This document shows, piece by piece, positions 28,315 through 51,223 of a DNA stretch of 64,000 nucleotides (the stretch's first letter is position 1; every line of letters begins with the position of its first letter). Source of the stretch: Mustelus asterias (lineage: Eukaryota); assembly GCF_964213995.1 (NCBI RefSeq), contig NC_135817.1:44330001-44394000 (forward strand), read 5' to 3'. Below the pieces are notes generated by a model that worked only from the letters and a program-made list of their open reading frames with translations, was not told the origin of the DNA and did no database searches. A program made the position numbers and the translations under genes.

Positions 28315-28612
28315 TGATGTGCGATATAACACACGAGAGGCGTGATGTACTCGGGAAATAAAGGCTTTTATTGCCAACAATAACAGAGCTACCATATACA
28401 GTACACGATCCCAGACTAAAGGGTCACCAGGCAGAGCAGTGACCTTTATACCTCTCCCAGGAGGCGGAGCCGACTGGGGTGTACCATAACAACTATATTA
28501 ACAGGTAGAACAGCCCAACCCTAACCCCAACAGTAACATATATACAGACTCATAGTACTGGCCAGACCATGGCTCAGCACTACCTAGTGGGAACCAACAA
28601 TGGTTCACCACA
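28315..28612 (-). repeat. Gypsy 3' LTR (type A, 298 bp)
   Basis: Its 28448-28612 part appears identical to 33065-33229. Confidence 0.95.
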
Positions 28613-28675
28613 TTCACCCCTCCTTTGAAAACAAAGGCCGGCGGGGTACAAAACACAGAATAATTGTTCGTTTGT

Positions 28676-31600
28676 CTATAGGTTCAAGCGGTCTGGGGGA
28701 CCGCACCGTCGTTGTGACCTCCTCAACACCGGCGATGACACCGGTTCAGGCAATCGCGGTGACGTTCTCTCCAAGGCGATGTCCAGCGACTCCTCCAGTG
28801 CCTCACGAGCCGGTAGACCCCGAGTTGGTGACAACCCGCTGAACTCGGGCACGCCTTGAAGTGGCGACCATCTCCTGGACTCAGGCAAGCTGTACACGGG
28901 AGTAAGAGGGTTAAGTGATGGTACCGATACTGCCCGCGCGGTGTCAGGAGGGTAAAAAATGGTTGGGGGGTCCCTAACAGTAGGTGTGGGAGCGACAGGG
29001 GTTTCCAAGTCCCCTGCTGGCGCCAGATCTCGAATCGAGACCGTGTCCTCTCGCCCGTCAGGATATGCCACGTAGGCATACTGAGGGTTGGCGTGGAGGA
29101 GATGGACCTGTTCAACCAGAGGGTCGGACTTGCGGGTCCTAACATGTCGCCGCAGGAGGACAGGTCCTGAATACGTCAACCAAGACGGTAATGAGGTCCC
29201 AGAGGAAGACTTCCTAGGGAATGAAAACATTCTCTCATGAGGAGTAGCGTTGGTTGCCGTACACAGGAGTGAGCGTATGGAGTGGAGCGCATCAGGGAGC
29301 ACCTCTTGCCAATGGGAGACTGGAAGACCTTTAGACTTCAACGCCAGTAAGACAGCCTTCCAGACTGTAGCATTCTCTCGTTCAACCTGTCCGTTACCTC
29401 TTAGGTTGTAGCTCGTGGTTCTACTAGAGGCAATCCCGTATGAGTGCAGGTATTGTCTCAAGTCATCGCTCATGAACGACGAGCCCCTATCGCTGTGGAT
29501 GTAACAGGGGTAACCGAACAGGGTGAAAAGATCACGAAATGCCTTGATAACCGTGGCAGCGGTCATATCAGAACAGGGAATGACAAAAGGGAATCGTGAG
29601 TACTCATCAACCACATTGAGGAAGTACACGTTCCGATCTGTCGAGGGAAGGGGGCCCTTAAAGTCCACACTCAGTCTTTCGAAGGGACGAGTGGCCTTAA
29701 CGAGTTGTGCCCTGTCAGGTCGGTAGAAGTGCAGTTTGCATTCCGCGCGTACCCGGCAGCTTCTGGTTATGGACCTGACATCCTCCACCGAGTAGGGTAG
29801 ATTCCGGGCTTTTATGAAGTGGTAGAGCCGAGTGACCCCCGGATGGCAGAGGTCATTGTGGAGAGCCTGCAATCGATTCTCCTGCATACTAGCGCATGTT
29901 CCACGCGACAGGGCATCCGAGGGCTCGTTGAGCTTCCCTGGACGATACATGAAATCATAATTGTAGGTGGAGAGTTCGATTCTCCACCTCAAGATATTAT
30001 CATTCTTGATCTTACCCCGTAACGTGTTGTTGAACATGAACGCCACGGACCGCTGGTCCGTGAGCAGAGTGAACCGTTTGCCCGCCAAGTAATGGCGACA
30101 ATGCCGAACGGCCTCCACAATGGCCTGGGCCTCCTTTTCCACCGCCGAATGTCGAATTTCAGGGCCTTGGAGGGTGCGAGAGAAAAAGGCGACGGGCCTG
30201 CCCGCCTGGTTAAGTGTGGCGGCCAGGGCAAAATCAGATGCATCACTCTCCACCTGGAAGGGGATGGACTCGTCGATAGCGTGCATCGTGGCTTTCGTGA
30301 TGTCGGCTTTTATTCTTGCAAAGGCTAAGCGAGCCTCTGTTGCTAGGGGAAAAGAGGTAGACTTGATGAGCGGACGGGCTTTGTCCGCGTAATTGGGAAC
30401 CCACTGTGCGTAGTATGAGAAGAAGCCTAAGCATCTTCTCAGTGCTTTGACGCTAGTGGGCAGGGGAAGTTCGAGGAGAGGACGCGTACGGTCTGGATCA
30501 GGGCCAAGGACCCCGTTTTCCACCACGTATCCGAGGATAGCTAGGCGGCGCATGCGAAATACACACTTCTCCCTGTTGTAGGTCAGATTCAGGCGAGATG
30601 CAGTGCGTATAAGAATCTAAAAAGGTTGGCATCGTGGTCCTGCTGGTCATGGCCGCAGATAGTGACGTTATCCAGGTACGGGAAGGTAGCCCGCAGCCCG
30701 CTCTGGTCCACCATTCGGTCCATAGCACGCTGGAAGACCGAGACCCCATTCGTGACACCAAAAGGAACCCTTAAAAAATGGTACAGGCGACCATCCGCCT
30801 CAAAAGCCATGTATTGTCAGTCCTCTGGGCGAATGGGGAGTTGGTGGTAAGCAGATTTTAAGTCAATGGTGGAGAACACCCGGTACTGCGCAATCTGATT
30901 GACCATGTCAGATATGCACGGGAGGGGGTACGCATCCAGCTGCATGTATCTGTTAATGGTCTGACTATAGTCTATGACCATCCGGGGTTTGTTCCCATTC
31001 TTAACCACCACGACTTGCGCTCTCCAGGGACTAGCGCTAGGTTGGATGATCCCTTCCTTGAGGAGCCGCTGAACTTCAGATCGAATGAAGATCCGATCTT
31101 CAGCGCTGTAATGCCTGCTCTTTGTTGCGATGGGCTTGCAGCCTGGCACGAGATTCTGGAATAGGGAGGGTGTGGTAATCCTAAGCGTTGAGAGGCTACA
31201 TGTGGAGCGCGTTGGGCAATTTAGAGGCTGCGGGTCTCCCACTGAAAGCGGAGGGAGTGGCCCACCATACTGCAGGGTTACACTCTTCAAGTGGACCATA
31301 AAATCTAGTCCTAGGAGTATTGGCGCGCAAAGATGCGGTAACAGAAGGAGCTTGAAGTTCTCGTAGACTGTGTCCTGCAACGTCAGATTGACTACGCAAC
31401 TCCCTAGCACGGTGACAGACCGGGACCTTGACGCCATCGAAATTGTCTGCTTGGCAGGCTGGCTCTGGAGGCCACACCGCTTCATGGCGTCTGGGTGAAT
31501 AAAGCTCTCCGTGCTCCCGCTGTCAAACAGACAATAAATCGTGCGTTTGTTTACCTGTATGTCCATCATGGACTTGTCGAGTCTGTGAGGCTTTGCCTGG

Positions 31601-32702
31601 TCCAGGATGATCGACGCCACCGTTGGTTCGTGAGTGCCACTGCAGGCAGCTGAGATGGATGATGGCAACCCCTGCTGGTCATTCGCGGTCGGTGCCGACC
31701 AAAATGGTTGCTCCCATAGGTCGCACATGGGCGATGGCGCCAAAATCAGCGACCCCTGGTGGTCGCGCGTCTCTTGCGACTCCATCGTCTGGAATGGCGA
31801 CGTCCTGGCCTCGCACGTGGAAGAAACCCTTGACGATGCCGACGACGAGGAAACCGGCTTCGGGGAGTCACACGCCGCACTGCTGTGCCTCGATGTAAGT
31901 TTGGATCGACATACCTTCGAATAATGCCCCTTCTTGCCGCAGGCGGAGCACAATACCGCTTTAGCGGGACATCGCTGCCGAGTGTGTTTCACTCCCCCAC
32001 AGAAGTAACACCACGGGCCGCCTGGAGCTGCTGCCGTCGTCAGGCCCGAGGGTGGGAACGCAATCACGCCGCTTTTCGGACCCGCTGGATGAGGTGGGGT
32101 CTGTGACTGCCCCTGCCACGCTGTCTCCACGTGGTCATCGGGATACATCGCCAGGCTTTTGGAGGCCATTTCTAGCGTACCCGCTAGCTCTATAGACTTA
32201 GTGAGATCGAGATTACCTTGCTCCAACAGTCGAAGTCGGATATAAGACAATCCGATTCCCGCCACAAACGCATCTCGAGCGAGGTCGTTCATGTTCTGGT
32301 CTGCCGACACTGTTTTGCAGTTACAGCCCCTGGCTAGCTGTAGGAGCTCGCACGCATACTGTTCCGTCGTTTCGCCGGGCTGCCGTCGTCGAGTGGCTAA
32401 GAGATATTGAGCATGCATCTCGTTGGCGGTTTAATGTAGCGCTTCTTAAGAAGCTCGAGGGCCCCTTTGTAGTCGGTGGCCGCACGGATCGCTAAATTTA
32501 TAGCGTCGCTTACCCTCGCGTGGAGGACCCAGAGTCTGTCGTCATCTGTGGTGACCGCTGCGGAGGCTTCGAGGTAATCCTGAAAACATTTCAACCAGTG
32601 GTCGAAGGTGTTGGAGGCGCCCACCGCACGTGGGTCCAGCGTAAGCCATTCGGGTTTAAGCATTTGCTCCATGCTCTCTGTATCGTTTTCTTTTTTTTTC
32701 AA
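28676..32702 (-). pseudogene. Gypsy gag-pol with ~3 lesions
   Basis: Two zinc knuckles (CYFCGGVKHTRQRC, CSACGKKGHYSKVC), PR LFDSGS, RT IDLKSAYHQ/YLDN, RNase H ESDAS, IN VDFKGP/HSDRGSSF/GQVEREN. Frameshifts near 32420 and 30600; stop at 30817. Confidence 0.95.
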
Positions 32703-32733
32703 CGACGAGAGTTCAATTAGTAGTCAATAAAAT

Positions 32734-33064
32734 TGATGCGCGATATAACTCACGAGGCTAGAGATGCTCGAGGAAATAAAGGCTTTTATTGACTACTACA
32801 ATAGAGCTACCATATATAATACACGATCCCAGACTGAAGGGTCCCAGACAGAGCAGTGACCTTTATACCTCTCCCAGGAGGCAGAGCCCGACTGGGATGT
32901 ACCATAATAACTATATTACAGGTAGAACAGCCCAACCCTAACCCCAACAGTAACATGTAGAACAGCCCAACCCTAACCCCAACAGTAACATATATACAGA
33001 CTCATAGTACTGGCCAGACCCTGGCTCAGTACTACCTGGTGGGAACCAACGATGGTTCACCACA
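32734..33064 (-). repeat. Gypsy 5' LTR (divergent type B, 331 bp)
   Basis: TG...CA; homologous to but clearly different from type A; followed by a 165-bp type-A fragment at 33065-33229. Confidence 0.9.
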
Positions 33065-33735
33065 ATACCTCTCCCAGGAGGCGGAGCCGACTGGGGTGTA
33101 CCATAACAACTATATTAACAGGTAGAACAGCCCAACCCTAACCCCAACAGTAACATATATACAGACTCATAGTACTGGCCAGACCATGGCTCAGCACTAC
33201 CTAGTGGGAACCAACAATGGTTCACCACAACTACTTCCTTGGTTCTCAGGCCAAACTTCCTCTAAGGGTCTCCCTTCCCTTGCCTTGAACTTTTTTCTTT
33301 AGTTTTTCTCTTATCCACCTTATGCCATCTCTGATCTCAACTTGTCCATGAGACCCTATCTTGCTCTCTCAATGCTATTTGAATGAGAATACTGACAACT
33401 CAGCTTCCCTTCTTGGCTCGCACATTAGCTGATATTAATGGTTTTCTTTCCTTAGACTCTCTCTTTAAATCTTCTGTCATAGCCCCTCTTGGTAGTTTCA
33501 AAATTAATAGTATTAGTGTGACTATCATTTTATAGTTTAAAATAATATTATTCAGCATTCTGTGCTAAATTGACAAAAGCGCTTTAAAAAAAACAAAATC
33601 TGCATTATTAGAAAGCAGCTACATTAGATAAATAGACAGCCTTATTTGTGAGACAATTTAAAAAATAAGCAATTCATTCATAGAGATATTAGGAAAGCTT
33701 GTAATGTAATCTGGAACACAACAGTTTATCACTTT

Positions 33736-34676: not shown

Positions 34677-35709
34677 ATTGGGGAGTTATTGCAAACAAAT
34701 GAGCCCCCTAAATCTTAGTTCAGATAAATCCAAGTTGTTACACTCTGCTCTCAAGAAAAAACACCACTTTACCACTCCGTCCTGACAAACTACCACCCAT
34801 CTCCAACCTTCGATGCCCCTCCGAAGTCCTTGAACATGTAGTGGCTGCCCAAATTCAACCTCATCTTTCCTGAACTTCACATTTCATTCCTTCCAATCAG
34901 GTTGCAGTTCTTGCCATAGTTGGGACAAAATCAAAGATCATGTAGATGAATGTGTATTAATTAAGGAATACCAGCATGGATTTATTGAAGGTATCTTGTG
35001 TTTAGCTAACTTGATTTTGTTTTTGGATGAAGTAGTAGGCAAGACCCTGCAAACATCCTAAACACACCATTACCAGTTGCTGTTCCTTGCTGGCAGTATG
35101 CTAGAGCACAACATCTGTTTGGCACCCAGTTCTGGGTTGTCATCACCATCTTGACCACTCCACTCTCTCTAAATTATTGGGATGCTTATCTTGGATGAGC
35201 AGAATTTTTCTCAAATTAAATATTGGGAAGTCCGAAGCCGGCATCTTCAGTCCCCATCATAAACTTGATGTTCACTGGCTCCATCCCACTCCCTGACAAC
35301 CCTCTGAGGCTGAATCAGACTGGTTGCTACCTTGGCAGAGACTTAATTTTTAAATTATTTTCACAAGATGTGGGTATCACTGGCAAGGCCAGCATTTATG
35401 GCCCATAATTTCCCTCAAGAAGGTAGTGGTGAGCTGCCTTCATGAAATGCTGCAGGTCAAATAATGTAGGTAAATCCATAGTTCTGTAAGAGAGGTAGTA
35501 CCATGTAGTGTCGGTAAATCCATAATGCTGTTGGGAGGTAGTTCCAGGATTGGATTCGATTTGATTTGATTTAATTTATTATTGTCACATGTATTAATAT
35601 ACAATGAAAAGTATTGTTTCTTGCACATTATACAGATAAAGCATACTGTACATAGAGAAGGAAAGGTGAGAGTGGAGAATGTAGTGTTACAGTAAACGAA
35701 CTTAACAAT

Positions 35710-35727
35710 TGGCGCTGCGAGTAGGGT
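35710..35727 (+). promoter_or_regulatory. ERV-A primer binding site (tRNA-Ser-like)
   Basis: tggcgctgcgagtagggt 2 nt after the LTR end; resembles the complement of the tRNA-Ser(CGA) 3' end with ~3 mismatches. Splice donor ag|gtaaga at 35812. Confidence 0.6.
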
Positions 35728-35930
35728 TCCAACATATACAGACATCGTCCGAGGTGGATTGAATAAACGATCGTCTGGGTGTCGGTAACATGAGACGGCC
35801 GGGCCCACGAGGTAAGATTAACCTTGGTCTCTCTCACTGGATTAATACTCAGTCGACCCCTCATCCCCCGAGGCCCTGTATTGACGGAACCCAGAGACGA
35901 CTTACGTCCTTGAACACTGACTAGTCCTAC

Positions 35931-36322
35931 ACCGGGAGGTTCGAGTCCCCCCGTTGTCCTGGTGGTTCGAGTCCCCAGGTTTATTTAGTAAGACACCAGG
36001 CGGTTCGAGTCCCCCGGTTGATCTGGTGGTTCGAGTCCCCAGGTTTATTTAGTAAGACACCAGGCGGTTCGAGTCCCCCGGTTGATCTGGTGGTTCGAGT
36101 CCCCAGGTTTATTTATTAAGACACCGGGCAGTTCGAGTCCCCCGGTTGCTCTGGTGGTTCGAGTTCCCAGGTTTATTTGGTAAGACACCGGGCGTTTCGA
36201 GTCCCCCGGTCTGCCTGGAGGTTCGAGTCCCCAGGTCTATTCGGTAATATAGCGGAGGTTTGAGCCCCCCGTTGACCTTGGGGTTCGAATCCCTAGGTCG
36301 ATAGCAATTGACGTTCGAGTCC
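35931..36322 (+). repeat. 64-bp dimeric tandem array of GGTTCGAGTCC hairpins in the ERV-A leader
   Basis: Period 64 (accagg at 35995 and 36059); 13 B-box/T-loop-like motifs. Confidence 0.9.
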
Positions 36323-36343
36323 TCTAAAGTATTCTTATATTTA

Positions 36344-36651
36344 TGATGCGCGATTAATTCACTCGAGATGCTCGATCGTACTCGGGAAATAAAGGCTTTT
36401 ATTAGCAACAAGAATAGAGCATACTGCTTAACAATACAATCCTAGACTAAAGGGTCACTAGGAAGTGCAGTGACTTTTATACCCCTATAGGAAGGCGGAG
36501 CCAACCGGAGTGTACCACAGAACAATACCAACAGGCAGAACACCCCAACCCTAACCCCAGCAGCAAGCAGAGTAACATATGTACAAGTACCCATAGTGAT
36601 AACCATCTATGGTTCAGTACCCATAGTGGTAACCATCTATGGTTCACCACA
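36344..36651 (-). mobile_element. Gypsy solo LTR (third variant of the 28-33 kb family)
   Basis: tgatgcgcgat...ggttcaccaca; 5-bp TSD attta. Confidence 0.9.
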
Positions 36652-36667
36652 ATTTAATCAACTAAAA

Positions 36668-38135
36668 ATGGGTCAGACCCTTGATAAGTCAGGCGACAGA
36701 AGCCCCTTATACACCTTCTGTCTTCAGCACCCGGCAGAGGAGAAAAAAATTAAGACGACGGTCGGGTTGCCTGAATAAAAAGTTGAGAGACAAGAATTGG
36801 CCACTAGGGATTTGGATAAGTGTATTAAAGCAGAGGAGGCTATTTGGAAACGCAATGCGGGAAGTAAATGGAAAGTATTAATGTCCCTTTGGAGAAAAAA
36901 AGCTTATGAAAAATATAAGAAGTCAAAACTGGCCAGTTGGGAGGACAATGCACGTGGAAGGGGGATAAGTGAATGTGATAATGAGGGTTAACCCAATTCC
37001 TGGGAAATTTTGAAATGGGAACGTGAGAAAAAAAGAAGTAGAAAAGAGATAGAGCAGAACAAGAGAGGTTAGACAAGGAAGAGAGAGATAAGAAAATAGG
37101 ATTAGAAAGGCAGGCCGAACAAAGAAAACATAAGAAACGTGAGGCACCTCCTGACTTATCTGGCTTGCCGATGTTGTTTGAGGGAAATGACACCGAGACG
37201 ATGATTGGAGCATCTATCCGACTGTTCCCCCCAACCCACCCATGCCATCGGCACCAACAGCATCTGCTCTGGTGAACCGTCCTCCCTCCGCCTTATAGTA
37301 CACCACAGGTACCACTACTGCCAGCGACTGCCAGTTCAAAGATGTGCGGGTTAGGTTGATTGGCCATGCTAAAATTGCCCCTTAGTGTCCTGAGATGCGT
37401 AGGTTAGAGGGATTAGCGGGTAAAATATGTGGGGGTAGGGCCTGGGTGGGATTGTGGTCGGTGCAGACTCGATGGGCCGAATGGCCTCCTGATGCACTGT
37501 AGGGATTCTATGATTCTATGACTTGTCATGAACCCCCTCCCTTTTGTACAAGGTCTCAAACCGGGAGACGTAAGAAGCCAAAAAACGTAAACAAGCCCGG
37601 TCCCTTTCAAATGATGCAGAGGACTAGATACGACACAGGTGACGATGACGACTTTGACGACTCAAGCACAGATACTGACATAGACGACCCCATTTGGGAG
37701 GGCTCAACCGAGGCAAACCCCCCACGAACGACCCCCGGAGGGAGACGCATACAGGGGCCTTCTCATACTCGCAATAGACAGTTCCCCAACCAAACGGTCC
37801 CCAATCCTTCGGCCGGTCCTAACGCTCCAGCAGCCCAACAAATCATGCAGGTGTATACTCCTTGGAAAACCCAGTGTCTAATCATGTCACATGTCCCAAA
37901 TCATAAAACTAGTCCCAAGGATTTCATTGAATATATTGTCGGCACCATCCAAATGTACCAGGCCACCCCACAGGACTTCTTTAGTCTCTGTTGTATGGCC
38001 TTGACACCCAGTGAATGTGCTAGGTGGAAGAATCACCTGGGGCACCAGAATTGGACTGTTTTTTCCGGAGCAGTGAATCAACCACAGCAGCAGGTCAATC
38101 AGATTAGTGAAGCTCTTAAGCGGACCCTACAACAA
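36668..38135 (+). pseudogene. ERV-A gag (frameshifted, SINE-interrupted, 3'-truncated)
   Basis: MGQTLDKSG myristoylation start; PSAP and PPPY late domains ~37245-37297; CA-like VYTPW..; HE1 3' fragment at ~37335-37520. Confidence 0.8.
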
Positions 38136-41100
38136 CCCGCTCCTGACGTTTTCCTTTTGCTCCACCGTCAACCCAGCTCCCTTTCTGACTGCTCTACCGG
38201 AGGAGCTCCCAGACCCTCTGCATGATTGCCTCCTCAGGAACAATTTTTTGACATCTCCTCGCCCCGACCTGAGTGATGTCCCTTTGTCCTCACCAGACCA
38301 TACCTTTTATGTTGACGAAAGCTCATCTATTTCTTTAGGAGGGAAGCCCCTCTCCGGCTATGCCATGGTGGACGCTACAGAGGTCTTGGAATCGGCATCC
38401 TTTGACCCCCCCAGTCTCCGCCCCGAAAGCAGAACTATTTGCCCTGACTCGGGCCTGCATCTTGGCGGCTGGCTGTTCTGTTAACATCTATACTGATTCT
38501 CGCTATGCCTTTGGCGTTACCCATGATTTTGGTCAGTTATGGGCCCAGCAAGGTTTTCTTACCTCCTCGGGTTCCCCGATCCAAAACTCCTTTTTAATTA
38601 AGAACCTACTACAGGCTATCCTTCTCCCGGCAAAACTGGCTGTTATTAAATGATGTGGAGATGCCGGCGTTGGACTGGGGTGAACACGGTAAGAAGTCTC
38701 ACAACACCAGGTTAAAGTCCAACAGGTTTATTTGGTAGCAAATACCATAAGTTTTCGGAGCACTGCTCCTTCGTCAGATGGAGTGGAAATGTGCTCTCAA
38801 ACAGTGCAAACAGACAAAATCAAGTTGCAGAATACTGATTAGAATGCGAATCCTACAACCAGCCAGGTCTTAAAGATACAGACAATGTGGGTGGAGGGAA
38901 CATTAAACACAGGTTAAAGAAATGTGTATTGTCTCCAGACAGAACAGCTAGTGAGATTCTACAAGCCCAGGAGGCAAGCTGTGGGGGTTACTGATAATGT
39001 GACATAAATCCAACATCCCGGTTTAGGCCGTCCTCATGTGTGCGGAACTTGGCTATTACTTTCTGCTCAGCGACTCTGCGCTGTCGTGTGTCGTGAAGGC
39101 CGCCTTGGAGAACGCTTACCTGAAGATCCAAGGCTGAATGCCCGTGACTGCTGAAGTGCTCCCCCACAAGAAGAGAACAGTCTTGCCTGGTGATTGTCGA
39201 GCGGTGTTCATTCATCCGTTGTCGTAGTGTCTGCATGGTTTCCCCAATGTACCATGCCTCGGGACATCCTTTCCTGCAGCGTATCAGGTAGACAATGTTG
39301 GCCGAGTTGCAAGAGTAGGTACCGTGTACCTGGTAGATGGTGCTCTCACGTGAGATGATGGCATCCGTGTCGATGATCCGGCACGTCTTGCAGAGGTTGC
39401 TGTGGCAGGGTTGTGTGGTGTCGTGGTCACTGTTCTCCTGAAGGCTGGGTAGTTTGCTGCGGACAATGGTCTGTTTGAGGTTGTGTGGGAACACCATCTA
39501 CCAGGTACACGGTACCTACTCTTGCAACTCGGCCAACATTGTCTACCTGATACGCTGCAGGAAAGGATGTCCCGAGGCATGGTACATTGGGGAAACCATG
39601 CAGACACTACGACAACGGATGAATGAACACCGCTCGACAATCACCAGGCAAGACTGTTCTCTTCCTGTGGGGGAGCACTTCAGCAGCCACGGGCATTCAG
39701 CCTTGGATCTTCAGGTAAGCGTTCTCCAAGGCGGCCTTCACGACACACGACAGCACAGAGTCGCTGAGCAGAAATGGCCTAAACCGGGATGTTGGATTTA
39801 TGTCACATTATCTGTAACCCCCACAGCTTGCCCCCTGGGCTTGTAGAATCTCACTAGCTGTTCTGTCTGGAGACAATACACATTTCTTTAACCTGTGTTT
39901 AATGTTCCCTCCACCCACATTGTCTGTACCTTTAAGACCTGGCCGGTTGTAGGATTCGCATTCTAATCAGTATTCTGCAACTTGATTTTGTCTGTTTGCA
40001 CTGTTTGAGAGCACATTTCCACTCCATCTGACAAAGGGGCAGTGCTCCGAAAGCTTATGGTATTTGCTACCAAATAAACCTTTTGGACTTTAACCTGGTG
40101 TTGTGAGACTTCTTACCGTGTTATTAAATGTGCAGCCCACACATCAGACTCGTCATTGGTCACTAAGGGTAATGCCCTGGTTGATCGTGCCGCCAAAGCA
40201 GCTGCCGCCTCTGGCGCTATGGTCGTGCCATCCATGAATAAGCAGGCGATAAACCACTAGCCTCCTTTGACCACGCCAGGCATGCCAGATATAGCCACTG
40301 TTCAGCGCTTACTGGGGGATGCCCCTGCTTCTGAACAAGACATTTGGAAGACGCATGGATGTTCGCATTCTGCGTCAACAGGTCTCTGGGTTACTCCAGC
40401 TGGCCAAGTCTGTGTACCCAATGCATTATTACCGTTATTGCTTGATTGCTTGCACTCGGATATGCACCTCGGCAGGGAGGGAATATGTGGAATATTGCTC
40501 CGCACCTGGTGGCACCCGCGATTAAATGAAGCAGCCCAATCCCGTATTCTGTCATGTTTCATATGTCGACAGAAAAATCCCGCCAAGGTATCAGGAGTCC
40601 ACAAGGTAGCACCCACTTGCTGGGAGGCCCATTTGACTGCGTCCAGTTAGATTTTATAGAATTACCTCGTGTACATTGCTACAAATATTGTCTTGTAATT
40701 GTCAATGTGTTTAGCCGTTGGATCGAGGAGTTCCCCACTACCAATAACAAAGCCTCTACAGTGGTAAAATTATTACTGACAGAAATTATACCCAGATTTG
40801 GCATACCCCAACAGATTAGCTCGGACAATGGTCCCCACTTTGTTGGAAAAATGAATAAGGAAATGTGCGACATATTACACATTCAGCAACAGTTCCATTG
40901 TGCCTATCACCCCCAGGCAGCAGGAATAGTGGAAAGAGCTAATGGGGCCCTTAAAATCAAGCTAGCCAAGTTGACGTCTGAAACCGGTCCAAATTGGCTA
41001 AAGGTCTTACCCTTAGCCCTCTACCACATGAGAATAATACCCCATTCTACCATCGGACTATCGGCTGCTGAAATAGTCTATGGTAGGCCAAGCAGAACAC

Positions 41101-41420
41101 CCTGGGATGCGAATATGAGCCCGCCCACTCAGATAGATTTACACGTTATGAGTGATGAAATGCAGAAGTACTTCCACCAGCTAACATCATCTTTTAAGTT
41201 TCTGCATTCACAGGTACAGTGCGCCTTTGGATCAAACGAGTGGATGGAGCCAGATCCTGACCCACAGACCGACTTCATTGGACCCCAGATAGGAGATCTA
41301 GTACTAATAAGGAAATGGGATTGGCCCAAACTTGGACCGCGGTGGAAAGGACCGTTCCAGGTTCTCCTCCAGACTCCAACTGCATCAAGGTTCAAGGACA
41401 ACCTCGCTGGATACATCTGA
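38136..41420 (+). pseudogene. ERV-A pol remnant: tether, RNase H and integrase (PR and RT deleted)
   Basis: HDCL, PRPDLSDVPL, FYVDESS, AELFALTRA, IYTDSRYAFG, AVIK|CAAH..GNALVDRAAK; IN HxxxH, CxxC, QLDFIEL, SSDNGPHF, GIVERANG, GPFQVLL. Confidence 0.92.
38653..40118. mobile_element. Palindromic Penelope-like insertion in ERV-A RNase H
   Basis: Minus arm GIY-YIG ORF 38988-39497, plus arm from ~39489; 12-bp TSD tgttattaaatg (38641-52, 40119-30); hammerhead motifs at 38745-38781 (-) and 40024-40060 (+, core mutated). Confidence 0.95.
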
Positions 41421-42768
41421 GTGACCATAAACGATGGATCCCAGCCCCTACCGATAAACCATGAAGGTTCTTCTTATCATCCTCAGCCTTTCGGCTATCC
41501 TCTGGTATGAGGACGACCAATCCAAAGGAAAAGAAGTCTGGGAAATGGACTAATCGATGGACATTCGCATCCTAATACCTTTTTGTATATGTCTTATCTT
41601 TATGCATTGCGATCAAACCTGAGTAAGTGTTGGGTATGTTCACATATCCTACCCATACCAAAGGAGGGATCCCCTTGTTCCCCGTCCCCTTATCCACACA
41701 GGAAACTATAGAATGGATACTGCGTCAGATCAGGACTGAAGGTGGGAGGCGAAGCGGTTCTTAGACTATCGGAGGTAACTACCAGGTCGATATTACGGGT
41801 GACGTTTCTACGCTGAAAACTGCTGGGTGTAACTTGACGACCTTTACTCATCGCTTTAAACCTAATTTTAATAGGTTGAACTCCCCACCTCATTTTGTTG
41901 TCATGAATTAACAGCATGGATCCGTATGTATCATTAGAAATGGGACTAAGCCGGTAGGCCGTAGTAGCTGTCACCAGACTGTTGTAGGTAGAAAAACCTC
42001 TGACACTATTAGTGGATCAAAGTGCAGGTTTATTTTCACAATTGTGGGAGAAGTGAGGTTCCTAACAGTGGACCCCCAGCCTTCTCCTTGAACACAAGTA
42101 AGAACAGAGATTTATACATTTCGGTTCCCGCCCCTATTACATTGCAATTTTCTAAGATGTCTGTCATTGTTCATGGTGAGATTCTTGTTGCATCAGCAGT
42201 TTCTTCCTCTACATAGTTTGTTCAATCTTCAAGGCCACGATCGTTTGTCATTTATAGTCTTGAAACAACATCACAGGTTTTGCACAAACAAGTTAACTTA
42301 TATACATACAAGGGTATAGGAGTTTGTATAATACTTTATATCAGGATAAGATGAATAACATATGATGAATATATATATGAATCTATGGTTACACGATCAC
42401 AGAAGGCATACATGTCAACTCCATGGTGTTAAACAAAGGTACAAAAAATGGAGTCTAGCTTAGCTTATTTGAGCTGGGTTAGCTGCATTCCTGAATACGA
42501 TAGCTGGAGAGAGCAGGGATATTTGTTCCTCTTATCTGGTCTGGATGCACGAAAACAATTAATTTTAACAAAAACAATTAATTTTACAGTACCCCTCACG
42601 AATCTCTTAAGTATTACAGAGGTGAGTCTAAATGCTTCAGCGTTACAAAGTTCATTAACCCATTCCCGTCTTCATTTTCCCCCCTTTTGGTCGGATGCCA
42701 GGTCCAAACATGGCACCTATGACCAACTCAGAACCACATGTTATCGGGGAATGGGCCTAGCTCCTTAG

Positions 42769-44142
42769 TCAGGAGGTCTGACCCTCCGCCTGTACACTTG
42801 CGACCGTCATAATTTGCGCTGTTACTGTTTTGCAACAGGCATTCAATAATTCCATACAAACACAGCAAGTAATTACAATTGCAATTAATACAATCAATCC
42901 ATGCATCAGGTATGCACCCCATGACCCGAACCATTGCCCCAGCCAGCCCAGAGGGTTATAATCGTGATATTGGTTCCCCTCATCCTGTATTGTTTTCGCC
43001 ACGTGTTTAATATGATCTGCCAAGTGAGTTATATTCTCCGAAGCATCGGGAATATACATACAGCATTCGGAGCCAACTATGGCACATGTTCCTCCTTGGG
43101 AGGCTAGCACATAATCGAGTGCTAATCGGTTCTGTAACGCCACAGTCCGAATAGCTATGACCTCTGCTGATATTTCAGAGACGGCCGTGCTCACCTCCTC
43201 GAACCCATTTTTAGTCTCATTTGCAATTTTCTCTAGGGTTGAGGCCATCCGTATAAGTTCCTGTGCCGCCTTTGCCGTCCCCAAAAATGGGTAGGCTATC
43301 ATGAAGAATCGTTCTGTCTCACTAATGGCTCCCTTAGCCCTAAGCAGGTGTATCTCGGGGTGGTCCTGTAAGTCAGTGTAATGGTGAATATAGGGCACCA
43401 CATATGCCAAATAACACGATCCTGTCTAATTCCAGGGAAGCCACGGATAGGCATTGTTTCCACAAACAAAATAGGTACCATTATATGCAGTCACCTCGCT
43501 TATATAAGCAGAGGAGAGGCTAACCGGGACGGTGGCGATGGGGCACTGGATTGTGGCCTGTATCATGGCCTCAGCATCATCAGTGATATCAATCTGCTGT
43601 ATACAGTAGCTACGGCCAACAGGTACGGTTCCATTTCTTGTCAGGCAGTTAGCTCCCCCTTGTTGATTTTTCACAATGAAGTAGGGTGGGGAATCTGATC
43701 TGTCATAGTTGGGTTGGTAATGTTTCTTAAAGGTCAATAAAGTGCACCCTCCGCCCCCTAGCCTTGAAATAACATCACTGTTGCTGATACCCTGCATAGT
43801 GGTACCCGATGGGGTTTTAAATGTCAGTTTCCTTGACCCTTCCTGGGTTCCATTCTGATTTAAAACCCATTCTATTGTTAGAATAGCTGAAAAAGGGATA
43901 GAGAATAAAGGAATTCCTCCCTTTCCTCCGTGCATGGGAATGTGTGAACAGACCCAGCACTTGCTCAGATTCGATTGTGATGCATACAGATAAGACATAT
44001 ACACAAAGGTGTTCATACAATAGACAGAGTCATTGTTACAGAGATGATCACTGTGCTTCATCCCTAACTTCTCATAATTCAATTTATACTTTCCCGCTAT
44101 GGCTAACAGGGCCAGGGTCGTGAGTATCAGCATGAGAAGCAT
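42769..44142 (-). pseudogene. ERV-B gamma-type env, one frame with a single premature stop
   Basis: 458 codons; TAG at 43426-28 where ERV-A has Trp. Signal peptide, CWVC, RAKG (degenerate furin site), LQNRLALDYVLASQGGTC, CAIVGSECC (CX6CC), TM helix. Confidence 0.92.
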
Positions 44143-47100
44143 CTTATCACTTACTAATATCCCGTGCGACCATTATACAATGGTCCAAAGGCTATATCGC
44201 CCACACGCAACATTCCTGCGTGCCCGTTCAGCTTGCTTGGAGGTCAGTCGTTGTTTGTTTATATCTGCAATTGGAGTATATCACATATTTTTCCAATTAA
44301 TTCCAGCATATATTTTTCAATATTTCCATATACTTTTCCTGATGTCTGTATGGCTTTAGCCAGTGCAAAGACTTCATTTAAAGTATTTTTGCCCAATGTA
44401 ATTAATTGTGCTATGCTTTAAGTTAATTTAAGCTAATTTGGCCACATCAGCTTGGAATTCTGAGTCCAACCTAGAAACTTAACTGCATTCTCTGAAAATA
44501 CAATGTAAGGTAAACAAACTTTCTCATGGCCAAAAAAGCAAGTTGTTGATGTAGCTGGAGACTGCTTGTATGTAATAATATCTGATTTAGTTATGCTTTA
44601 GAAACAGATGTTTTGAGTTGTTCAATCTCAGCGCTGGTTTTTGGCTGCTCTCTCTCTCCTTTCTCTAAAATATTTATTTCGTTATTTCAAAAACAATGCT
44701 TAAAGAAAGGCATATTTACTTCAGATCAGTTGAGTTTATTCTGAAGAAATAAACAGACCCTTCAGTTGGCTTAGTGCGTGTCAAACAACACATTGCACTG
44801 GCTGCAGCTGGCTAATTCTGTCAAAGGACATCGCTTTCCCCATTAAGATCACATGCCATACAGCTCCGATCTTTATATGATGTACTCTTACATTACATCT
44901 AATTTGATCATTTGTTTGTCCACATTTGAAAGTGCAATGTTTATGCAGAAATGATCCTTCTATAGACAGATTGTCTCATAAGGTAAACACCAGTGTTTCG
45001 TGGTCATGGATGCCAATTGTATGCTGCCAGACACAGCTCTTTAAAAACACAGATAACCGAAATGCTGTAAGATTTCTGAGTCTGGCTGCAAAGCCAGTCT
45101 CCAACTCTTTCTCTCTCTCCTCTCTCAAGTAATCCGGTTTCACTTCCTGTCATGTTAATGTTAATTGTGCAAGCTGTTACAAATTATGGCAAATAATGTT
45201 TACATGTTTGGAATAGCTAGCCTTTTTTCCCACAGAATTATTTCTTTATCAATACACAATATATATTATATAATTGGTTAAGGCTCTTCAGGATTTGATT
45301 TTCTCGGGTATATCCAAAACCCCTTAATTTAAGCCGTTTTCATTTTTAGACTGAGTTCCAGATCAGAATTCCTTCATTTTCAGAACAATAACAAGCACAA
45401 TACATGTAACAAGAGTTACTTGATTAGAAATGTTTTTGTTTGATGGCTAGGTTCTAAGCTTTGCAGTGTTCTTATATTTGGAAAACCTTGAACAATAGAT
45501 GAACAACACCTGCAATTCCAACAGCAGTATATAATTTCAACGAGTTACAGCATACTATACTATCAGAACTATCATCAATGTGAGATGATTTAGATGATGT
45601 AATTTGTTACATGTTATCGGAACATCACACAAGCCTTGAATTTCATATCGGTAACTGACTGGCAGCACAAGTTCCAATAATTCATGGCGTTCAATGGTTG
45701 GCATCAAATGCAGAGTGAAAATACTCAAGGACAACATCTCTATATCTGTATTAACAACTGAGGTTTTAACTGATTAATCCCCTGCTATAACTTGGGATAA
45801 TCAGAACTACGATTCATTTCACTAATTTGATACACTTTAAACTGACTCAGAGACAGTATATTCACCTTATTCATTTGTTCCTGTTTTTCGTTGTTTTCAC
45901 AAAATTACTTAGTATTTTTTTAACTTCTCAACTATACTCTTATTTCAACTTCAAAACAAGGAAAGAGCACATGGTCCTTCCAAGGTTTAACTCCTTTCTC
46001 AACATTAAAACAGTGAAGCGAACAACAATAAAACATTCACGCAACCACTTTGTTAAACACACAGATACACATGGAAGCTTCCAACATTTATTCAGACTTA
46101 ACATCTTAAACTGGGATGAAAGTAAAACACTTGAGAATACAGACCGTTGATTAACAGTCACTTTTATTCTGCTGTCTTTCAACCTGTAATTAAACTCAAA
46201 ACAGAAGTAAATTCAAGAAATCTTATCACTTTAATCTCTAACAGTTTGTAACAAACACTTCCTCAGCATTTTCTTATCTCATTTATTCCACTGAATTATT
46301 TCCCTCATCTCTAATTATATTGATTTGTCAATTTGGTATTATAAGCGGGCACTCCCTTTTAGTCCGTCTGGCAATTAATACAGCTTCCAACCTTCCAAGT
46401 GTGCTTTGTGTTCAGAACTACTACTCCAGTTTCTTATAACACGAAGGTCCATCCTGTCTAAGACAGGATGGATTAATTCTCTGCTTATTTCAGCAGAGAG
46501 GCGGAGGAGTAAATTCACTCAGATGAACATAAACAAGTGATTCATCATCACTCCAAATACGCAGGAATAATTCTTTCCATTTATCTTTTCATTGTCAGTT
46601 CTAGCAAAAATACATTTTCAAATTTAACAAAAGCCTGATCCAAATAATCCATTTATTTTATCACTTTTAAATATTCCTACTAAATTAAGACATTTACACT
46701 TTCTTACAGGCTCTCCGGTTTAAGCTCAAAATGTGCATAATTAATTATTTCTACAGTTCTGCTTTTGTAACCAACACAGGCAGATACAAGGTCGAACCTA
46801 CTGCGTGCCTTTGGTTAACTCTCCTTACAATTTTTGAGATGTAATGTAATGCTACTTTTCCCACATCCCTCAAATCTCTGTCCGATGCCTCTATTGTAAA
46901 ATTTACTGGGGAACATAATTTATTAAACTCGCACTCAAAGCAAACAATTCACTTTGATCTGCTGTACCCTATTCCACCACATGAGGCTCTTGATCACAAT
47001 TACATCTCTCTCTCTCCGAGGGAGAGAGAGAAAAACTTACAGCCTGCTGGTGTTTAACCCTTTACTCCCCTTTTTAGTCTTATCACGCTTCAAAGTAACC

Positions 47101-47149
47101 AAGTTAGCCTGATTTGAGTAGTCCCTTCTGTCTTTGCAGCGGCACTGGC

Positions 47150-47855
47150 ACTGGTGTCTGTCTTATTCATCGGGGCAATGACGGCTACCTTAGATGTCTG
47201 GTCTACACTGGTCAATTCCACCACCCCTGTTCATTCGTATCGGAATTTTGGAACAACATTGGCAACCCAGATACCTCTTTATCTTTCCTTTGATTCTCAC
47301 ATACACTGATCCCTCTTCTGTGTGCATTCTTCCTCCTCTTAATTGTTTTGTTGTGGTAATTCTGCTCCAATAAGTGGGAGCATTCCCTAATACTCTCTGA
47401 ATCTCCCCTCTGAATCTCTGTTTTACACTGGGTGAAGGGTTTATAATTTTGCTTTTGGCCGCGCACCAGTTCCCCTCCGGGTTACTGGCGCTGAGTTGTA
47501 TTCTAGCACTTCCCACTCCTCTGGAGGAGCGGTTGGTCCCAGTGTGGACTCATTAGGAGGTAAAGGAACAGTTTCCCCTCCCCATTGTTTTTCTTCTAAG
47601 ACTTGGTTTCGTTTCTCCAATTCTCTTATTCTGAATTCTAATTCTCTAATCTTTTCTTTATCTTGCTCAATTAGTCCAGCTAACTGATGTATTAACCATA
47701 CTCCGACCTTCTTTGTCTTGTTTCTCTTTTCTTTATCCATGTTTTCTGCTACTCTAAGGTCTGAGACGTATCTCAGCCATCCTTTTGCATCCTCTTTATG
47801 AATGCTTTTTTCTTTGATATGTACACGTCAATGAGAGGACCTGCAGATCCCCTCA
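47150..47855 (-). pseudogene. ERV-B second, partial gag paralog
   Basis: KEKRNKTKKVGVWLIHQLAGLIEQ, coiled coil, PTAP and YKPFT; homologous to the N-terminus of the first gag. Confidence 0.75.
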
Positions 47856-48804
47856 TTACTTCATTATCTGCCATTTCGCAGACTTCACTACCCCCTTTGG
47901 AGCCCTACAGTGTCTGACAAAGTGACCCAGTTTCCCACAGTTATGGCACGCACCCTTTGGTTTGGCTCCTCCACTGTTTGCACTAACATTTTCCTGTTTT
48001 ATTTGTAGGTATGGTCTCTCATCTGGTCCATCTCTAATTCCAGATGCCCATTCCACTAATACATCATAAGTCTGGGTTTTGAGAACTCCCATTTTAAGGA
48101 TTTACTGGTGAGCTGGCGACAGCCCGTCTTTAAATGCTTGTAAAAAGGCTCTATCTGTTCGGGCAGTTTCGGGTATTCCCCAACATTTTTGGTATACTCT
48201 AAAGAGTCGCTCCCCAAATTCGGAGGCTCTTTCACCCCTTTGTTGTTTAACATTGGTAATTCTGGACCAATTGGTTGGTCCCGCTCCGTCACTCATTAGT
48301 CTCCACGTATCCTGTGGGCAAGTGGCCCATACCAACTGGCGCATATCCCGCAAATATAAATGGAGCCTTCCCAGGAATGCCAAAACTTGTTGTCTTTCTT
48401 CTAGGGTAAAGGGTTTATATCGGGTGGGACTCTGTAATGTCCCACCCTTAGTTAAGGAAGCAGATCATGGACCTCTTCCTCATCGGGGTCTCCCACTGAT
48501 GCCGTGGCGCCAGGGTCCTCTAAAGGTTGGTTGCGCTTGTCTAATTCTCTTTTTGCTTTGACATCAGCCCATTTCTTACCCAAGACTGAGACCTGTTCAA
48601 TTAATCCAGCCAATTGGTGAACTAAGAGAACTCCAATTTTCTTAGTTCTGTTTTTCTTTTCCTTTTCCAACCATTTTTGTTGTTGGTCTAGTGGGTGGTC
48701 TAAATCCCATCCCCCTTTTATCACCTGTTTAATGAGTTTGTCCCTCTTAATCATATATTCGTTTATTAGGGACCCAGGGGTCCGCACTGTCTTTGTCCCG
48801 CCAT
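47856..48804 (-). pseudogene. ERV-B gag (frameshifted)
   Basis: KEKKNRTKKIGVLLVHQLAGLIEQ; MHR-like QQRGERASEFGERL; AFKDGL; zinc knuckle CHNCGKLGHFVRHC. Confidence 0.85.
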
Positions 48805-49176
48805 AACACTGATAAGTTTATACTCACCACCTGGAGTGATCTATTCTCCTTTCTCACGCTCCTCCTCCTAGGTCGCTCTTATCGGAGTCCGGTGATACCT
48901 GTAAGGGGTGATTAGATCCCTCCGTATCACCGCTTATGCTATATATTTGTTAAGCCGGCTTCTCCTCAGAAGGCTTTTCCTTCTAACTCTTTTACATGAA
49001 GGCTTTTCCTTCAAATTCCGGCGATCACTCAGACAGTCCCTATCTCACTCACGTCTGAACATCACACACTCTTATCACAGATGATTACCTACTGCAGTTT
49101 GACCCACTCTATTTAAAGTTCGGTAATCTATTCAGGTGTCTCGGTTGTGGCCATCCAACCGGACCGTAAACAGATT

Positions 49177-49194
49177 ATCCCAGACGAGCCCCCA
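49177..49194 (-). promoter_or_regulatory. ERV-B primer binding site, tRNA-Pro
   Basis: TGGGGGCTCGTCTGGGAT, one mismatch to canonical PBS-Pro TGGGGGCTCGTCCGGGAT. Confidence 0.95.
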
Positions 49195-50729
49195 ATTGTT
49201 GTAGGTAAAAAAACCTCTGACACTATTAGTAGATCAAAATGCAGGTTTATTTTCACAATTGTGGGAGAAGTGAGGTCCCTAACAGTGGACCCCCAGCCTT
49301 CTCCTCGAACACAAGTAAGAACAGAGTTTTATATATCTCGGTTCCCGCCCCTATTACATTGCAATTTTCTAAGATGTCTGTCATTGTTCATGGTGAGATT
49401 CTTGTTGCATCAGCAGTTTCTTCCTCTGCGTAATTTGTTCAATCTCCAAGGCCACGATCATTCATCATTTATAGCCTTGAAACAACATCACAGGTTTTGC
49501 ACAAACAAGTTAACTTATATACATACAAGGGTATAGGAGTTTGTATAATACTTTATATCAGGATAAGATGAATAACATATGATGAATATATATATGAATC
49601 TATGGTTACACAATCACAGAAGGCATACATGTCAACTCCATGGTGTTAAACAAAGGTACAAAAAATGGAGTCTAGCTTAGCTTATTTGAGCTGGGTTAGC
49701 TGCATTCCTGAATACGATAGCTGGAGAGAGCAGGGATATTTGTTCCTCTTATCTGGTCTGGATGCACGAAAACAATTAATTTTAACAAAAACAATGAATT
49801 TTACAGTACCCCTCACGAATCTCTTAAGTATTACAGAGGTGAGTCTAAATGCTTAAGCGTTACAAAGTTCATTAACCCATTCCCGTCTTCACAGACCTTC
49901 AATGTTACTAAGGGCACCCAAAGGGACATGCTGAAAATTGAGTGTTCTAACGGTATTGCCCAACTCAGGATGGATCCCGAACTACTGAGCGACATGATGG
50001 CGTATAATGGTACCTATTTTGTCTGCGGAAACAACGCCTATCCATGGCTCCCTTGGCATTGGGCAGGATCTTGCTATCTAGCATATGTGGTCCCCTATAT
50101 CCGACATTATGACTCCCTATGACTCCACCCCAAGATACACCTTTTGAAATCAAAATGGGCCATCACGGAGACCCAGCGGTTTTGGATGATAGCCTTTCCT
50201 CTTTATGATACAGCCAAAGCTGCCCGAGAACTGATCAACATGGCGTTAGCTCTCGAGAAAATAGCCAATGACACAGCAGATGGTCTGGAAAGTGTGAGCA
50301 CGGCCATATCTGAGGTGTCGGCAGAAGTAATTGCCATCCGAACGATAGCCCTCCAAAACTGAATGGCCTTAGATTATTTACTGGCCAAATCGGGAGGTAC
50401 ATGCACTCTAGTGGGACAGAGTGCTGCACCTATATCCCTGATTCCTCTGAAAATATAACAAGCCTCGTTGATCACATCAGAGAGATAGCAGATAAGATCA
50501 GAACCGAAGGGCACAGATTCAACAATTACAACCCCCCTGGTTGATGGCCGTTTGGGAGCATATTTGGTGACTGGGGAGGAATGATAGTACACCTGGGGAT
50601 CATTATCTTGGTCATGTTGATCATTTTATTTTTTCTCAAATGCCTATGTAATTATTTGTCCCGTTCTTCCAATGGTCCCCTGTAAAACGATTTACGGATT
50701 AGTTATCATGGAATGATAAAAGGAGGGAA

Positions 50730-51223
50730 TGAGATATTAAAGAGTTAATATCCACTGTAGAGTCTCAGATGAACTATTGGGTTTGCAAAAATAACAGAAA
50801 AACAGCTCATGAGAGCAAACTGACAAACAAGATAACCACAGGCTCCAACTTCCAGAGCACAGCCAGGGTGATTTTTTTTTATTTCAAAAGATGTTCTTTC
50901 TCATGCAGCTATACTTGTTTTTGCTTAAGACAGCTGGGGTGCTGTTTTTGCTGGGAACTGAAAGTTCTTTCTTGTGTGCTTGTCCTTGATTGTATCAGAT
51001 GACGTGTGCTTGCTGAAATCTGCCTGCTGAAATTGTAAATTGTACAAAAGCCTTTTTGCTCAGTGCGCTTTTGCTAACTGACTCCCAGCACTGAGTGGAA
51101 GTTACGTAGCAAAGCTTTGCCAGCTTGCATATGTAAGACAAATAAAGAACTTTTGAATCGGACAACAGTTGGTGTTTGCCTTTGTATCAGGAATGGAAGA
51201 GTCTCACGATAACGAACTTAACA
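50730..51223 (+). repeat. ERV-A 3' LTR
   Basis: Follows the PPT, TG...CA, aataaa near 51141; ends aacgaacttaaca as at 35695-35707. Confidence 0.9.

What the first reader, a model, noticed from the sequence alone, without database searches (positions are those of the whole stretch)
35931..36322. Array of 13 tRNA T-loop / Pol III B-box hairpins in a retroviral leader
Seen: six 64-bp units, each with two hairpins of the same architecture - lower stem, one bulged nucleotide, GG-TTCGAGT-CC - but different lower stems (accggg/cccggt, cctgg/ccagg, gaccttgg/ctaggtc), separated by a tttattt linker. The CpG in the loop survives in 12 of 13 copies although the provirus is otherwise decayed. The array sits between the splice donor (35812) and the gag ATG (36668), so it would be present only in unspliced RNA. 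Known: GGTTCGANNCC is both the TFIIIC B box and the tRNA T-arm loop; gammaretroviral packaging signals lie at this position; some retroviruses encode Pol III small RNAs. Inference: a multivalent tRNA-mimic packaging, dimerisation (TCGA palindrome) or translation element, or a TFIIIC-recruiting anti-silencing array. No clear A boxes were seen. I do not know of a described equivalent, but cannot search.
Basis: partly seen in the sequence, partly recalled or inferred. Interest (0 to 1): 0.8.

Follow-up and report, generated by a model that had tools for sequence, protein, structure and literature searches.

The report
Hairpin array in shark retrovirus leader
A family of dead retroviruses in a shark-type genome carries a row of 3 to 15 small repeated hairpin sequences just before its first gene, likely a multi-site handle by which the virus packed its RNA; the tRNA-like look of this copy is one loop variant that close relatives lack.

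Summary
The array is real: 13 loop motifs at 35938-36322, between a predicted splice donor and gag of a decayed class I ERV with a tRNA-Ser primer site. It is a family trait: all 30 related leaders first fetched carry it, and runs of four other organisms cover it. Three sister lineages (integrase 61-79% identical) keep the layout primer site, donor hairpin, array, gag, but the loop changes: UUCGAGU, UUAGAGG, UUAGCGA, UCAGGGA. Lineage B (0 of 157 loops) and three complete leaders of a sub-lineage have no B box or UUCRA loop. What stays is a GG/CC stem with a 7-nt U-Y-N-G-N-G-N loop; lower stems match their own partners across 17 hairpin classes (p 0.0004). Six gag-less copies, at least five separately inserted, keep the whole array. 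CpG survival is unremarkable. Best reading (0.55): an RNA-level multivalent Gag/nucleocapsid packaging-dimerisation element whose copy number varies like a minisatellite; binding is untested. TFIIIC array and strict tRNA mimicry are unlikely. Ten paper searches found no description; two key fish-retrovirus papers were unavailable. The scan noted a similar array before in another genome (e1-7858707).

The parts
35696..35707 (+). last bases (U5 end, ...CA) of the 5' LTR; the rest of the 5' LTR is absent from the window
   Evidence: matches the end of the 3' LTR and of relatives' LTRs by eye; blastn with the 3' LTR finds no second copy in the window
35710..35727 (+). primer binding site for tRNA-Ser (UGA/CGA type), one mismatch in this copy
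   Evidence: complementary 3' ends found in 56 places in the genome; ARAGORN of 6 checked loci tRNA-Ser
35808..35826 (+). predicted major splice donor (intron from 35812) inside a short hairpin shared by lineages A, B and C
   Evidence: pattern found at 113 places in the genome; aligns across all three lineages; splicing itself not shown
35929..36241 (+). five regular 64-bp units, each with two predicted hairpins GG-(7-nt loop)-CC on different lower stems
36248..36326 (+). three-hairpin 3' cap of the array, seen in most lineage-A copies
36344..36651 (-). Ty3/gypsy solo LTR inserted after integration, 5-bp target duplication; not part of the leader
   Evidence: 77% identical to the LTR at 28315-28612 of the gypsy element in this window; most relatives run from array to gag directly
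36668..38150 (+). broken gag (stops, a repeat insertion, 3' part with nucleocapsid missing; end approximate)
38339..41420 (+). pol remnant: RNase H and integrase with MLV-type C-terminal domain, interrupted by a 1.5-kb insertion
   Evidence: Pfam RNase_H, rve, MLVIN_C; nearest named relatives a shark ERV protein (63%) and teleost ERV pol proteins (about 45%)
41460..50640 (+). broken env, interrupted by a second LTR element on the minus strand (about 41980-49500); ends approximate
50730..51223 (+). 3' LTR behind a polypurine tract
   Evidence: its end matches the LTR ends upstream of relatives' primer sites

Best explanation
The array is a tandem row of short predicted RNA hairpins between the predicted splice donor and gag of a shark class I retrovirus family, and it likely served as the core packaging and dimerisation signal by offering Gag's nucleocapsid many guanine-bearing sites at once. 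Shown: position, family-wide presence, variable copy number, the shared GG/CC stem with a 7-nt U-Y-N-G-N-G-N loop, class-specific complementary lower stems, retention in gag-less copies that inserted separately. Inferred: only unspliced RNA carries it; each loop presents a U-Y-N-G tract like the UCUG that the single zinc knuckle of MLV binds; the repeats can pair between two genomes; unit number drifts by template switching during reverse transcription and by slippage after integration. The tRNA T-loop/B-box look is one state of a loop that tolerates change at exactly the positions that define those motifs.
For: Array in 30 of 30 loci first fetched and in 38 of 40 A, 24 of 27 C, 34 of 34 B leaders (one B copy was misfiled under C; misses that I read are leaders cut by insertions or deletions). 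Between A and C only the LTR edge, donor hairpin and array align. Census without a loop template: U-Y-N-G in 186 of 246 (A), 150 of 169 (A2), 66 of 89 (C), 104 of 110 (B) loops, against TTCRA in 160, 56, 73, 0. Lower stems pair better with their own 3' arm: 3.94 vs 2.83 pairs, 17 classes, permutation p 0.00035; G-U pairs favour the sense strand, 10 vs 4 in 25 recurrent hairpins. Six C copies share a deletion of gag and most of pol starting about 45 nt after the last hairpin, with at least five different 5' flanks. Single CCHC knuckle in lineage B Gag (2 copies). MLV's single knuckle binds UCUG through its G (PMC7599994 section 23; PMC13736810 passages); packaging signals lie in the 5' UTR and splicing can remove them (PMC12789967 section 28).
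Against: No binding, structure probing or packaging data. MLV nucleocapsid did not bind isolated hairpins; its UCUG is a linker exposed on dimerisation. Inherited UUCAAGU and UUAAAGU classes lack the fourth-position G (9 copies in one A class, 10 and 6 copies in two C classes). Lineage B has no matched lower stems (1.67 vs 2.83, p 0.83). 7 of 17 A/C classes pair no better with their own arm, and classes are related, so the p value overstates independence. Whole-leader folds mostly do not keep the local hairpins. One leader (L337) has a single hairpin. The gag-less copies also keep LTRs and the 3' region, so they do not single out the array. No nucleocapsid sequence was recovered for lineages A or C. 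More distant ERV lineages in the same genome replicated without such an array.
Confidence: 0.55

Rival explanations
1. The loops fold as true T-loop modules in lineages A and C and act as tRNA mimics or as paired (interdigitated) T-loops that grip the primer tRNA elbow or a second genome, as the BMV box B does for template recruitment.
For: UUNRA in 272 of 290 A and 119 of 125 C loops, including inherited UUAGA, UUUGA, UUCAA, UUAAA, while the third base varies freely; 7-nt loop on a 4-8 bp stem; loops often come in pairs. BMV carries a functional, modified T-arm mimic (PMC13191261 passage; PMC5869524 passages). Interdigitated T-loops bind tRNA elbows (PMC4919913 passages).
Against: UUAGCGA (14 loops, 11 copies) and UUAGUAA (4 copies) are inherited in A2; B has 0 of 110; L335 and L336 arrays are almost wholly non-UUNRA. 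On the integrase tree B nests with A (95/94), so the motif was lost without loss of replication. The loop is not the T arm of the primer (host tRNA-Ser has UUCGAAC). The T-loop does tolerate other 1-5 pairs (10.1101/2022.12.26.521914 passages), so this is not excluded.
Confidence: 0.13
2. The array regulates RNA fate rather than packaging: a splicing silencer or enhancer, export or translation element just downstream of the major donor (G-runs and hairpins read by host proteins).
For: Begins about 120 nt after the donor in all lineages; G-runs in every unit; donor hairpin and array are the two conserved leader blocks.
Against: Kept in gag-less copies where gag translation is void (weak, may be passive); no reading frame through the array (stops in all three frames). 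No test here separates it from packaging.
Confidence: 0.13
3. A DNA-level array of sites for a Pol II regulator (motif GGT-Y-M-G-R-G-W-CC; lineage B contains an RGGTCA nuclear-receptor-type half-site, recalled consensus) acting as enhancer, silencer or insulator like the gypsy Su(Hw) array (recalled).
For: The 11-nt core is better conserved than its flanks; lineage B keeps the core without lower stems.
Against: Class-specific complementary stems and sense-strand G-U bias in A and C are not expected of a double-stranded site; in the A2 variant GGGA-UUAGUAA-UCCC the core changes on both sides and keeps pairing.
Confidence: 0.08
4. A TFIIIC-recruiting B-box array or Pol III promoter that protects the provirus from silencing or makes small RNAs.
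For: 8 of 13 window loops are exact GGTTCGANNCC; in 19 A copies loop CpG decay is 23 of 153 (15%) against 83 of 294 (28%) in the unique leader, nominal p 0.002.
Against: B box in only 185 of 290 A, 76 of 125 C, 0 of 157 B loops; none in complete leaders L335, L336, L339. The only A-box-like match is the primer site. The one TCGA-context CpG outside the array decays 3 of 18 (17%); lineage C shows 16% vs 18%, p 0.86; duplicated units are not independent. A double-stranded site would not explain the stems.
Confidence: 0.05
5. A selectively neutral minisatellite amplified by template switching and slippage.
For: Copy number varies 3-15; window units 2 and 3 share private changes, so they were duplicated after mutating; SINE-derived B-box minisatellites arise elsewhere in this genome.
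Against: Same position in three lineages with three different primer sites; core kept while unit length, linkers and stems differ; complementary stem changes.
Confidence: 0.06

Closest known systems
Moloney MLV core encapsidation signal (DIS-2, SL-C, SL-D; UCUG sites bound by a single zinc knuckle; PMC7599994 section 23, PMC13736810 passages)
   Same: Class I retrovirus, leader position, several hairpins, pyrimidine-rich tract ending in G, single CCHC knuckle (seen here in lineage B), self-complementary elements.
   Different: Here 3-15 copies of one hairpin type in a variable tandem array, with the U-Y-N-G tract in the loop; MLV uses a few unlike hairpins and a linker site exposed on dimerisation. 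No sequence likeness tested or expected.
Brome mosaic virus box B / replication enhancer (T-arm mimic; PMC13191261 passage, PMC5869524 passages)
   Same: Viral RNA hairpin with a GGUUC-type T-loop sequence in a cis-acting region that selects the genome.
   Different: Single element, strictly T-loop dependent and modified in vivo; here the T-loop positions change in inherited variants and are absent from lineage B.
Pol III B box / TFIIIC sites (PMC4810235 passage for A and B boxes)
   Same: GGTTCGANNCC in 8 of 13 window loops.
   Different: No A box, C56 not conserved, absent in sister lineages, embedded in strand-biased stems.
Leader tandem repeats of fish retroviruses ZFERV and SSSV (recalled only; papers PMC368747 and PMC1395439 not held)
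   Same: As I recall, tandem repeats between primer site and gag in fish class I retroviruses.
   Different: Could not read or compare them; whether their units are hairpins with this loop is unknown.

Membership tests
Retroviral packaging signal (Psi) | Lies in the 5' leader, downstream of the major donor and before gag | tested here: met
   donor is predicted from sequence
Retroviral packaging signal (Psi) | Stem-loops with unpaired guanines, conserved in the family | tested here: inconclusive
   conserved core and matched stems, but whole-leader folds favour inter-repeat pairing
Retroviral packaging signal (Psi) | Kept in defective genomes mobilised in trans | tested here: met
   six gag-less C copies with one junction, at least five different flanks; consistent, not specific
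Retroviral packaging signal (Psi) | Binds Gag/nucleocapsid and is needed for encapsidation | not testable with these tools
   no binding or packaging data
Pol III B box / TFIIIC array | GTTCRANNC conserved across the family | tested here: not met
   185 of 290, 76 of 125, 0 of 157; zero in three complete leaders
Pol III B box / TFIIIC array | A box upstream (type 2 promoter) | tested here: not met
   only match with one mismatch in 35691-36330 is the primer site (consensus recalled)
Pol III B box / TFIIIC array | TFIIIC occupancy, protection from methylation | tested here: inconclusive
   CpG decay proxy: lower in A loops, not in C, and explained in part by context; occupancy not testable
tRNA T-arm mimic (BMV box B type) | UUCRA loop on a short stem, conserved | tested here: not met
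   met in the window copy, lost in inherited A2, A3 and B loops
tRNA T-arm mimic (BMV box B type) | m5U/pseudouridine modification in vivo | not testable with these tools
   no RNA reads
Generic T-loop structural motif | Five-nucleotide loop closed by a Y-A non-canonical pair | tested here: inconclusive
   UUNRA in 272 of 290 A and 119 of 125 C loops, 125 of 169 A2, 0 of 110 B; motif tolerates other pairs
Ordinary minisatellite | Variable copy number | tested here: met
   3-15 hairpins
Ordinary minisatellite | No preferential conservation of core or pairing | tested here: not met
Class I (gamma/epsilon-like) ERV | MLV-type integrase C-terminus, TLV-type env, LTR-PBS-gag-pol-env-PPT-LTR order | tested here: met
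   the TLV_coat hit was scored on the nested element's env, which resembles this env by eye

The most novel reading that the evidence does not exclude
A retroviral genome-selection signal built as an expandable array of true T-loop modules that pair up to clamp the primer tRNA elbow or the partner genome, with host tRNA-modifying enzymes marking the viral RNA, and with sister lineages that re-coded the loop together with their Gag.
Probability: 0.1. Interest if true: 0.75.

Novelty: new variant of a known kind. Interest (0 to 1): 0.42.

Why it matters
Nothing I could read describes packaging signals of fish or shark class I retroviruses. If the array is the packaging core, it is a natural series of one hairpin repeated 3-15 times with several inherited loop sequences, which makes the question of how many Gag sites a genome needs, and which loop bases matter, directly testable with short RNAs. 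It also warns that T-loop/B-box matches in ERV leaders can be a passing state of a different motif.

Tried and rejected
Rfam scan of 35000-37500: 3 chance-level hits, none in the array. Triple B-box pattern in viral contigs: 17 loci, not examined further. Donor-hairpin pattern in metagenome contigs: 119 loci, none with two or more loop cores. Integrase search in viral contigs: nothing. No RNA holder listed for the stretch; says nothing on expression. Lineages D, E, F1, F2 (26 loci, integrase 46-63% to A-C) show no tandem loop array; F2 has three scattered GGGTC motifs, not followed up. Anticodon-loop mimicry of the primer (loops read CGA, AGA, UGA, the Ser anticodons) rejected: lineage C primes with tRNA-Arg(ACG) yet has the same loops. 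Origin from the primer's T arm rejected. TCGA kissing palindrome rejected as the conserved feature: 183 of 290, 63 of 125, 0 of 157. Coding role rejected. LTR dating impossible: no 5' LTR in the window. Nucleocapsid of lineages A and C not found. (tRNA look-ups) gave nothing used. One search misassigned A copies to B; redone. L272 was filed as C and corrected. In one search five A2 loci were dropped as overlaps, near-identical triplicates or partial. ZFERV and SSSV papers not held. Paper searches without a description of such an array; PMC2684134 and PMC13517186 passages had nothing on leader repeats. No supplements were read.

Full report
Observation. The sequence is as described. Thirteen loop motifs lie at 35938-36322; 8 match GGTTCGANNCC exactly, 5 with one mismatch, and the window has 21 matches against 7.4 expected. 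TRF gives period 64, 5.8 copies. Five units are regular, the last three hairpins form a distinct cap. Each hairpin alone folds to GG/CC over a 7-nt loop with a lower stem, except the last. The whole array folds better than shuffles (z -3.3) but mainly by pairing between repeats. A gypsy solo LTR (36344-36651) separates array and gag in this copy.

Context. The host element is a decayed class I ERV: primer site for tRNA-Ser at 35710, predicted donor at 35812, broken gag, RNase H and integrase with MLV-type C-terminus, env split by a nested element, 3' LTR at 50730-51223. The 5' LTR is missing from the window. Nearest named proteins are a shark ERV (63%) and teleost ERVs (about 45%).

Family. 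A search of the own genome gave 46 matches from 40 of 128 candidates scored; all 30 loci fetched carry the array after the donor. Contigs of four other organisms in four studies cover it, mostly at 80-95% identity. Integrase and donor-hairpin searches led to two sister lineages with the same layout: C, primed by tRNA-Arg(ACG), and B. Arrays were found in 38 of 40 A, 24 of 27 C and 34 of 34 B leaders (one B copy misfiled as C). Hairpin number runs from 3 to 15 in intact leaders. On a 145-column integrase tree C is sister to A plus B (95/94; the three together 91/83), integrase identities between lineages 61-79%. Four more distant lineages (26 loci) have no such array. Between A and C only the LTR edge, donor hairpin and array align; one two-hairpin block is 93% identical over 56 nt, which suggests exchange by recombination, so A and C are not independent origins.

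What is conserved. In A and C most loops fit UUNRA (272 of 290, 119 of 125), but a strict B box only 185 of 290 and 76 of 125, because UUAGA is inherited in whole hairpin classes. Sub-lineage A2 adds inherited UUAGAGG (41 loops, 21 copies), UUAGCGA (14, 11) and UUAGUAA on a GGGA/UCCC stem (4, 4). Three complete leaders of a further sub-lineage have arrays with no TTCRA at all (L335, L336, L339), and one has a single hairpin (L337). Lineage B has UCAGGGA throughout (92 of 110 loops). A census without a loop template gives U-Y-N-G in 186 of 246, 150 of 169, 66 of 89 and 104 of 110 loops, a purine at position 6 in 222, 163, 82 and 107, and a peak at 7-nt loops whose shoulders at 8-9 come from the G and C runs. 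So the bases that define a B box (C56) and a tRNA T loop (A58) are the ones free to change. Against a strict fourth-position G stand inherited UUCAAGU and UUAAAGU classes.

Structure. Across 17 A/C classes the lower stem pairs with its own 3' arm better than with foreign arms (3.94 vs 2.83 pairs, p 0.00035; 7 classes show no gain; classes are related); lineage B shows no lower stems, its core being a 5-bp hairpin or self-complementary duplex by itself. G-U pairs favour the sense strand, 10 vs 4 in 25 recurrent hairpins, a weak sign of RNA-level selection. In whole-leader ensembles most local hairpins have low probability; this may be a real alternative fold or a limit of the model.

CpG. In 19 lineage A copies loop CpGs decayed in 23 of 153 cases (15%), stems 27 of 97 (28%), unique leader 83 of 294 (28%); but the one TCGA-context site outside the array decayed 3 of 18, and lineage C shows 11 of 68 vs 80 of 446 (p 0.86). 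At 13-20% decay, at most one loss in 13 has probability 0.48-0.23. Window units 2 and 3 share private changes, so part of the 13 arose by duplication after mutation. Host-level protection is not shown.

Natural deletion. Six C copies share one junction that removes gag and most of pol about 45 nt after the last hairpin; their 5' flanks differ in at least five. They were evidently packaged by a helper with the array intact and no gag sequence. This fits a packaging role but does not single it out.

Mechanism. I commit to an RNA-level multivalent Gag/nucleocapsid packaging-dimerisation element (0.55). Lineage B Gag has one CCHC knuckle; MLV's single knuckle binds UCUG through its G, though not in isolated hairpins (PMC7599994, section 23 and passages; PMC13736810 passages); packaging signals are structured 5' leader motifs that splicing can remove (PMC12789967, section 28). 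Binding, structure and splicing are all inferred. Rivals: true T-loop module (0.13; BMV precedent in PMC13191261 and PMC5869524 passages; interdigitated T-loops in PMC4919913 passages; T-loop definition in 10.1101/2022.12.26.521914 passages), RNA-processing element (0.13), Pol II DNA sites (0.08), neutral repeat (0.06), TFIIIC array (0.05). By inference, faithful T-arm mimicry could be costly, since m1A58 stops reverse transcriptase on tRNA (PMC13191261 passage).

Novelty. Ten searches found no description, but the ZFERV and SSSV papers, which I recall as mentioning leader repeats, were not held, so leader repeats in fish retroviruses may be known as such. The scan noted a similar array in another genome (e1-7858707) and a same-loop hairpin row in a retrovirus-like element (e1-8373830); neither could be tested here, and I saw them before settling on the packaging reading's final form. 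Verdict: real, family-wide, a new variant of a known kind; interest 0.42.

Noticed in passing
window 41980-49500 (-): A second LTR element nested in the env gene, with its own class I-type env (TLV_coat) but a different gag; relatives L289-L291 have two CCHC knuckles and an integrase far from lineages A-C.
   Followed up: partly
L220, L224, L242, L243, L254, L092: Non-autonomous lineage C element lacking gag and most of pol, junction about 45 nt after the array, inserted at several places; many lineage B copies also reach integrase within about 700 nt of the gag start.
   Followed up: partly
L217-L254 (lineage C leaders): A second copy of the U5 end and primer-site start sits inside the array, possibly a recombination scar.
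   Followed up: no
L323, L326, L331, L335-L339: Sub-lineage of A with a different primer site (looks like tRNA-Ser(GCU), recalled, not checked); with lineage C (tRNA-Arg) this makes three primer sites on one leader design.
   Followed up: partly
G000 hits at 50% identity; L297-L304: A young multi-copy ERV family with long open pol frames and no leader array by the tests.
   Followed up: no
G000:C72:8280421-8286705, C12:93266499-93282219, C3626:386-677: Minisatellites of B-box-containing units, apparently from the tRNA-derived SINE; the two C72 arrays lie in opposite orientation 6 kb apart.
   Followed up: no
window 28315-33230 (-): Ty3/gypsy element with nearly open gag-pol frames and both LTRs.
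   Followed up: partly
window 38657-40120 and 27059-27637: A 1.5-kb insertion in pol with inverted ends and GIY-YIG-like reading frames in both directions (Penelope-like by recall), with a relative near 27 kb.
   Followed up: no
G000:C7:135977270-135984269: Three near-identical leader copies about 3.4 kb apart (L327-L329), a local tandem triplication.
   Followed up: no
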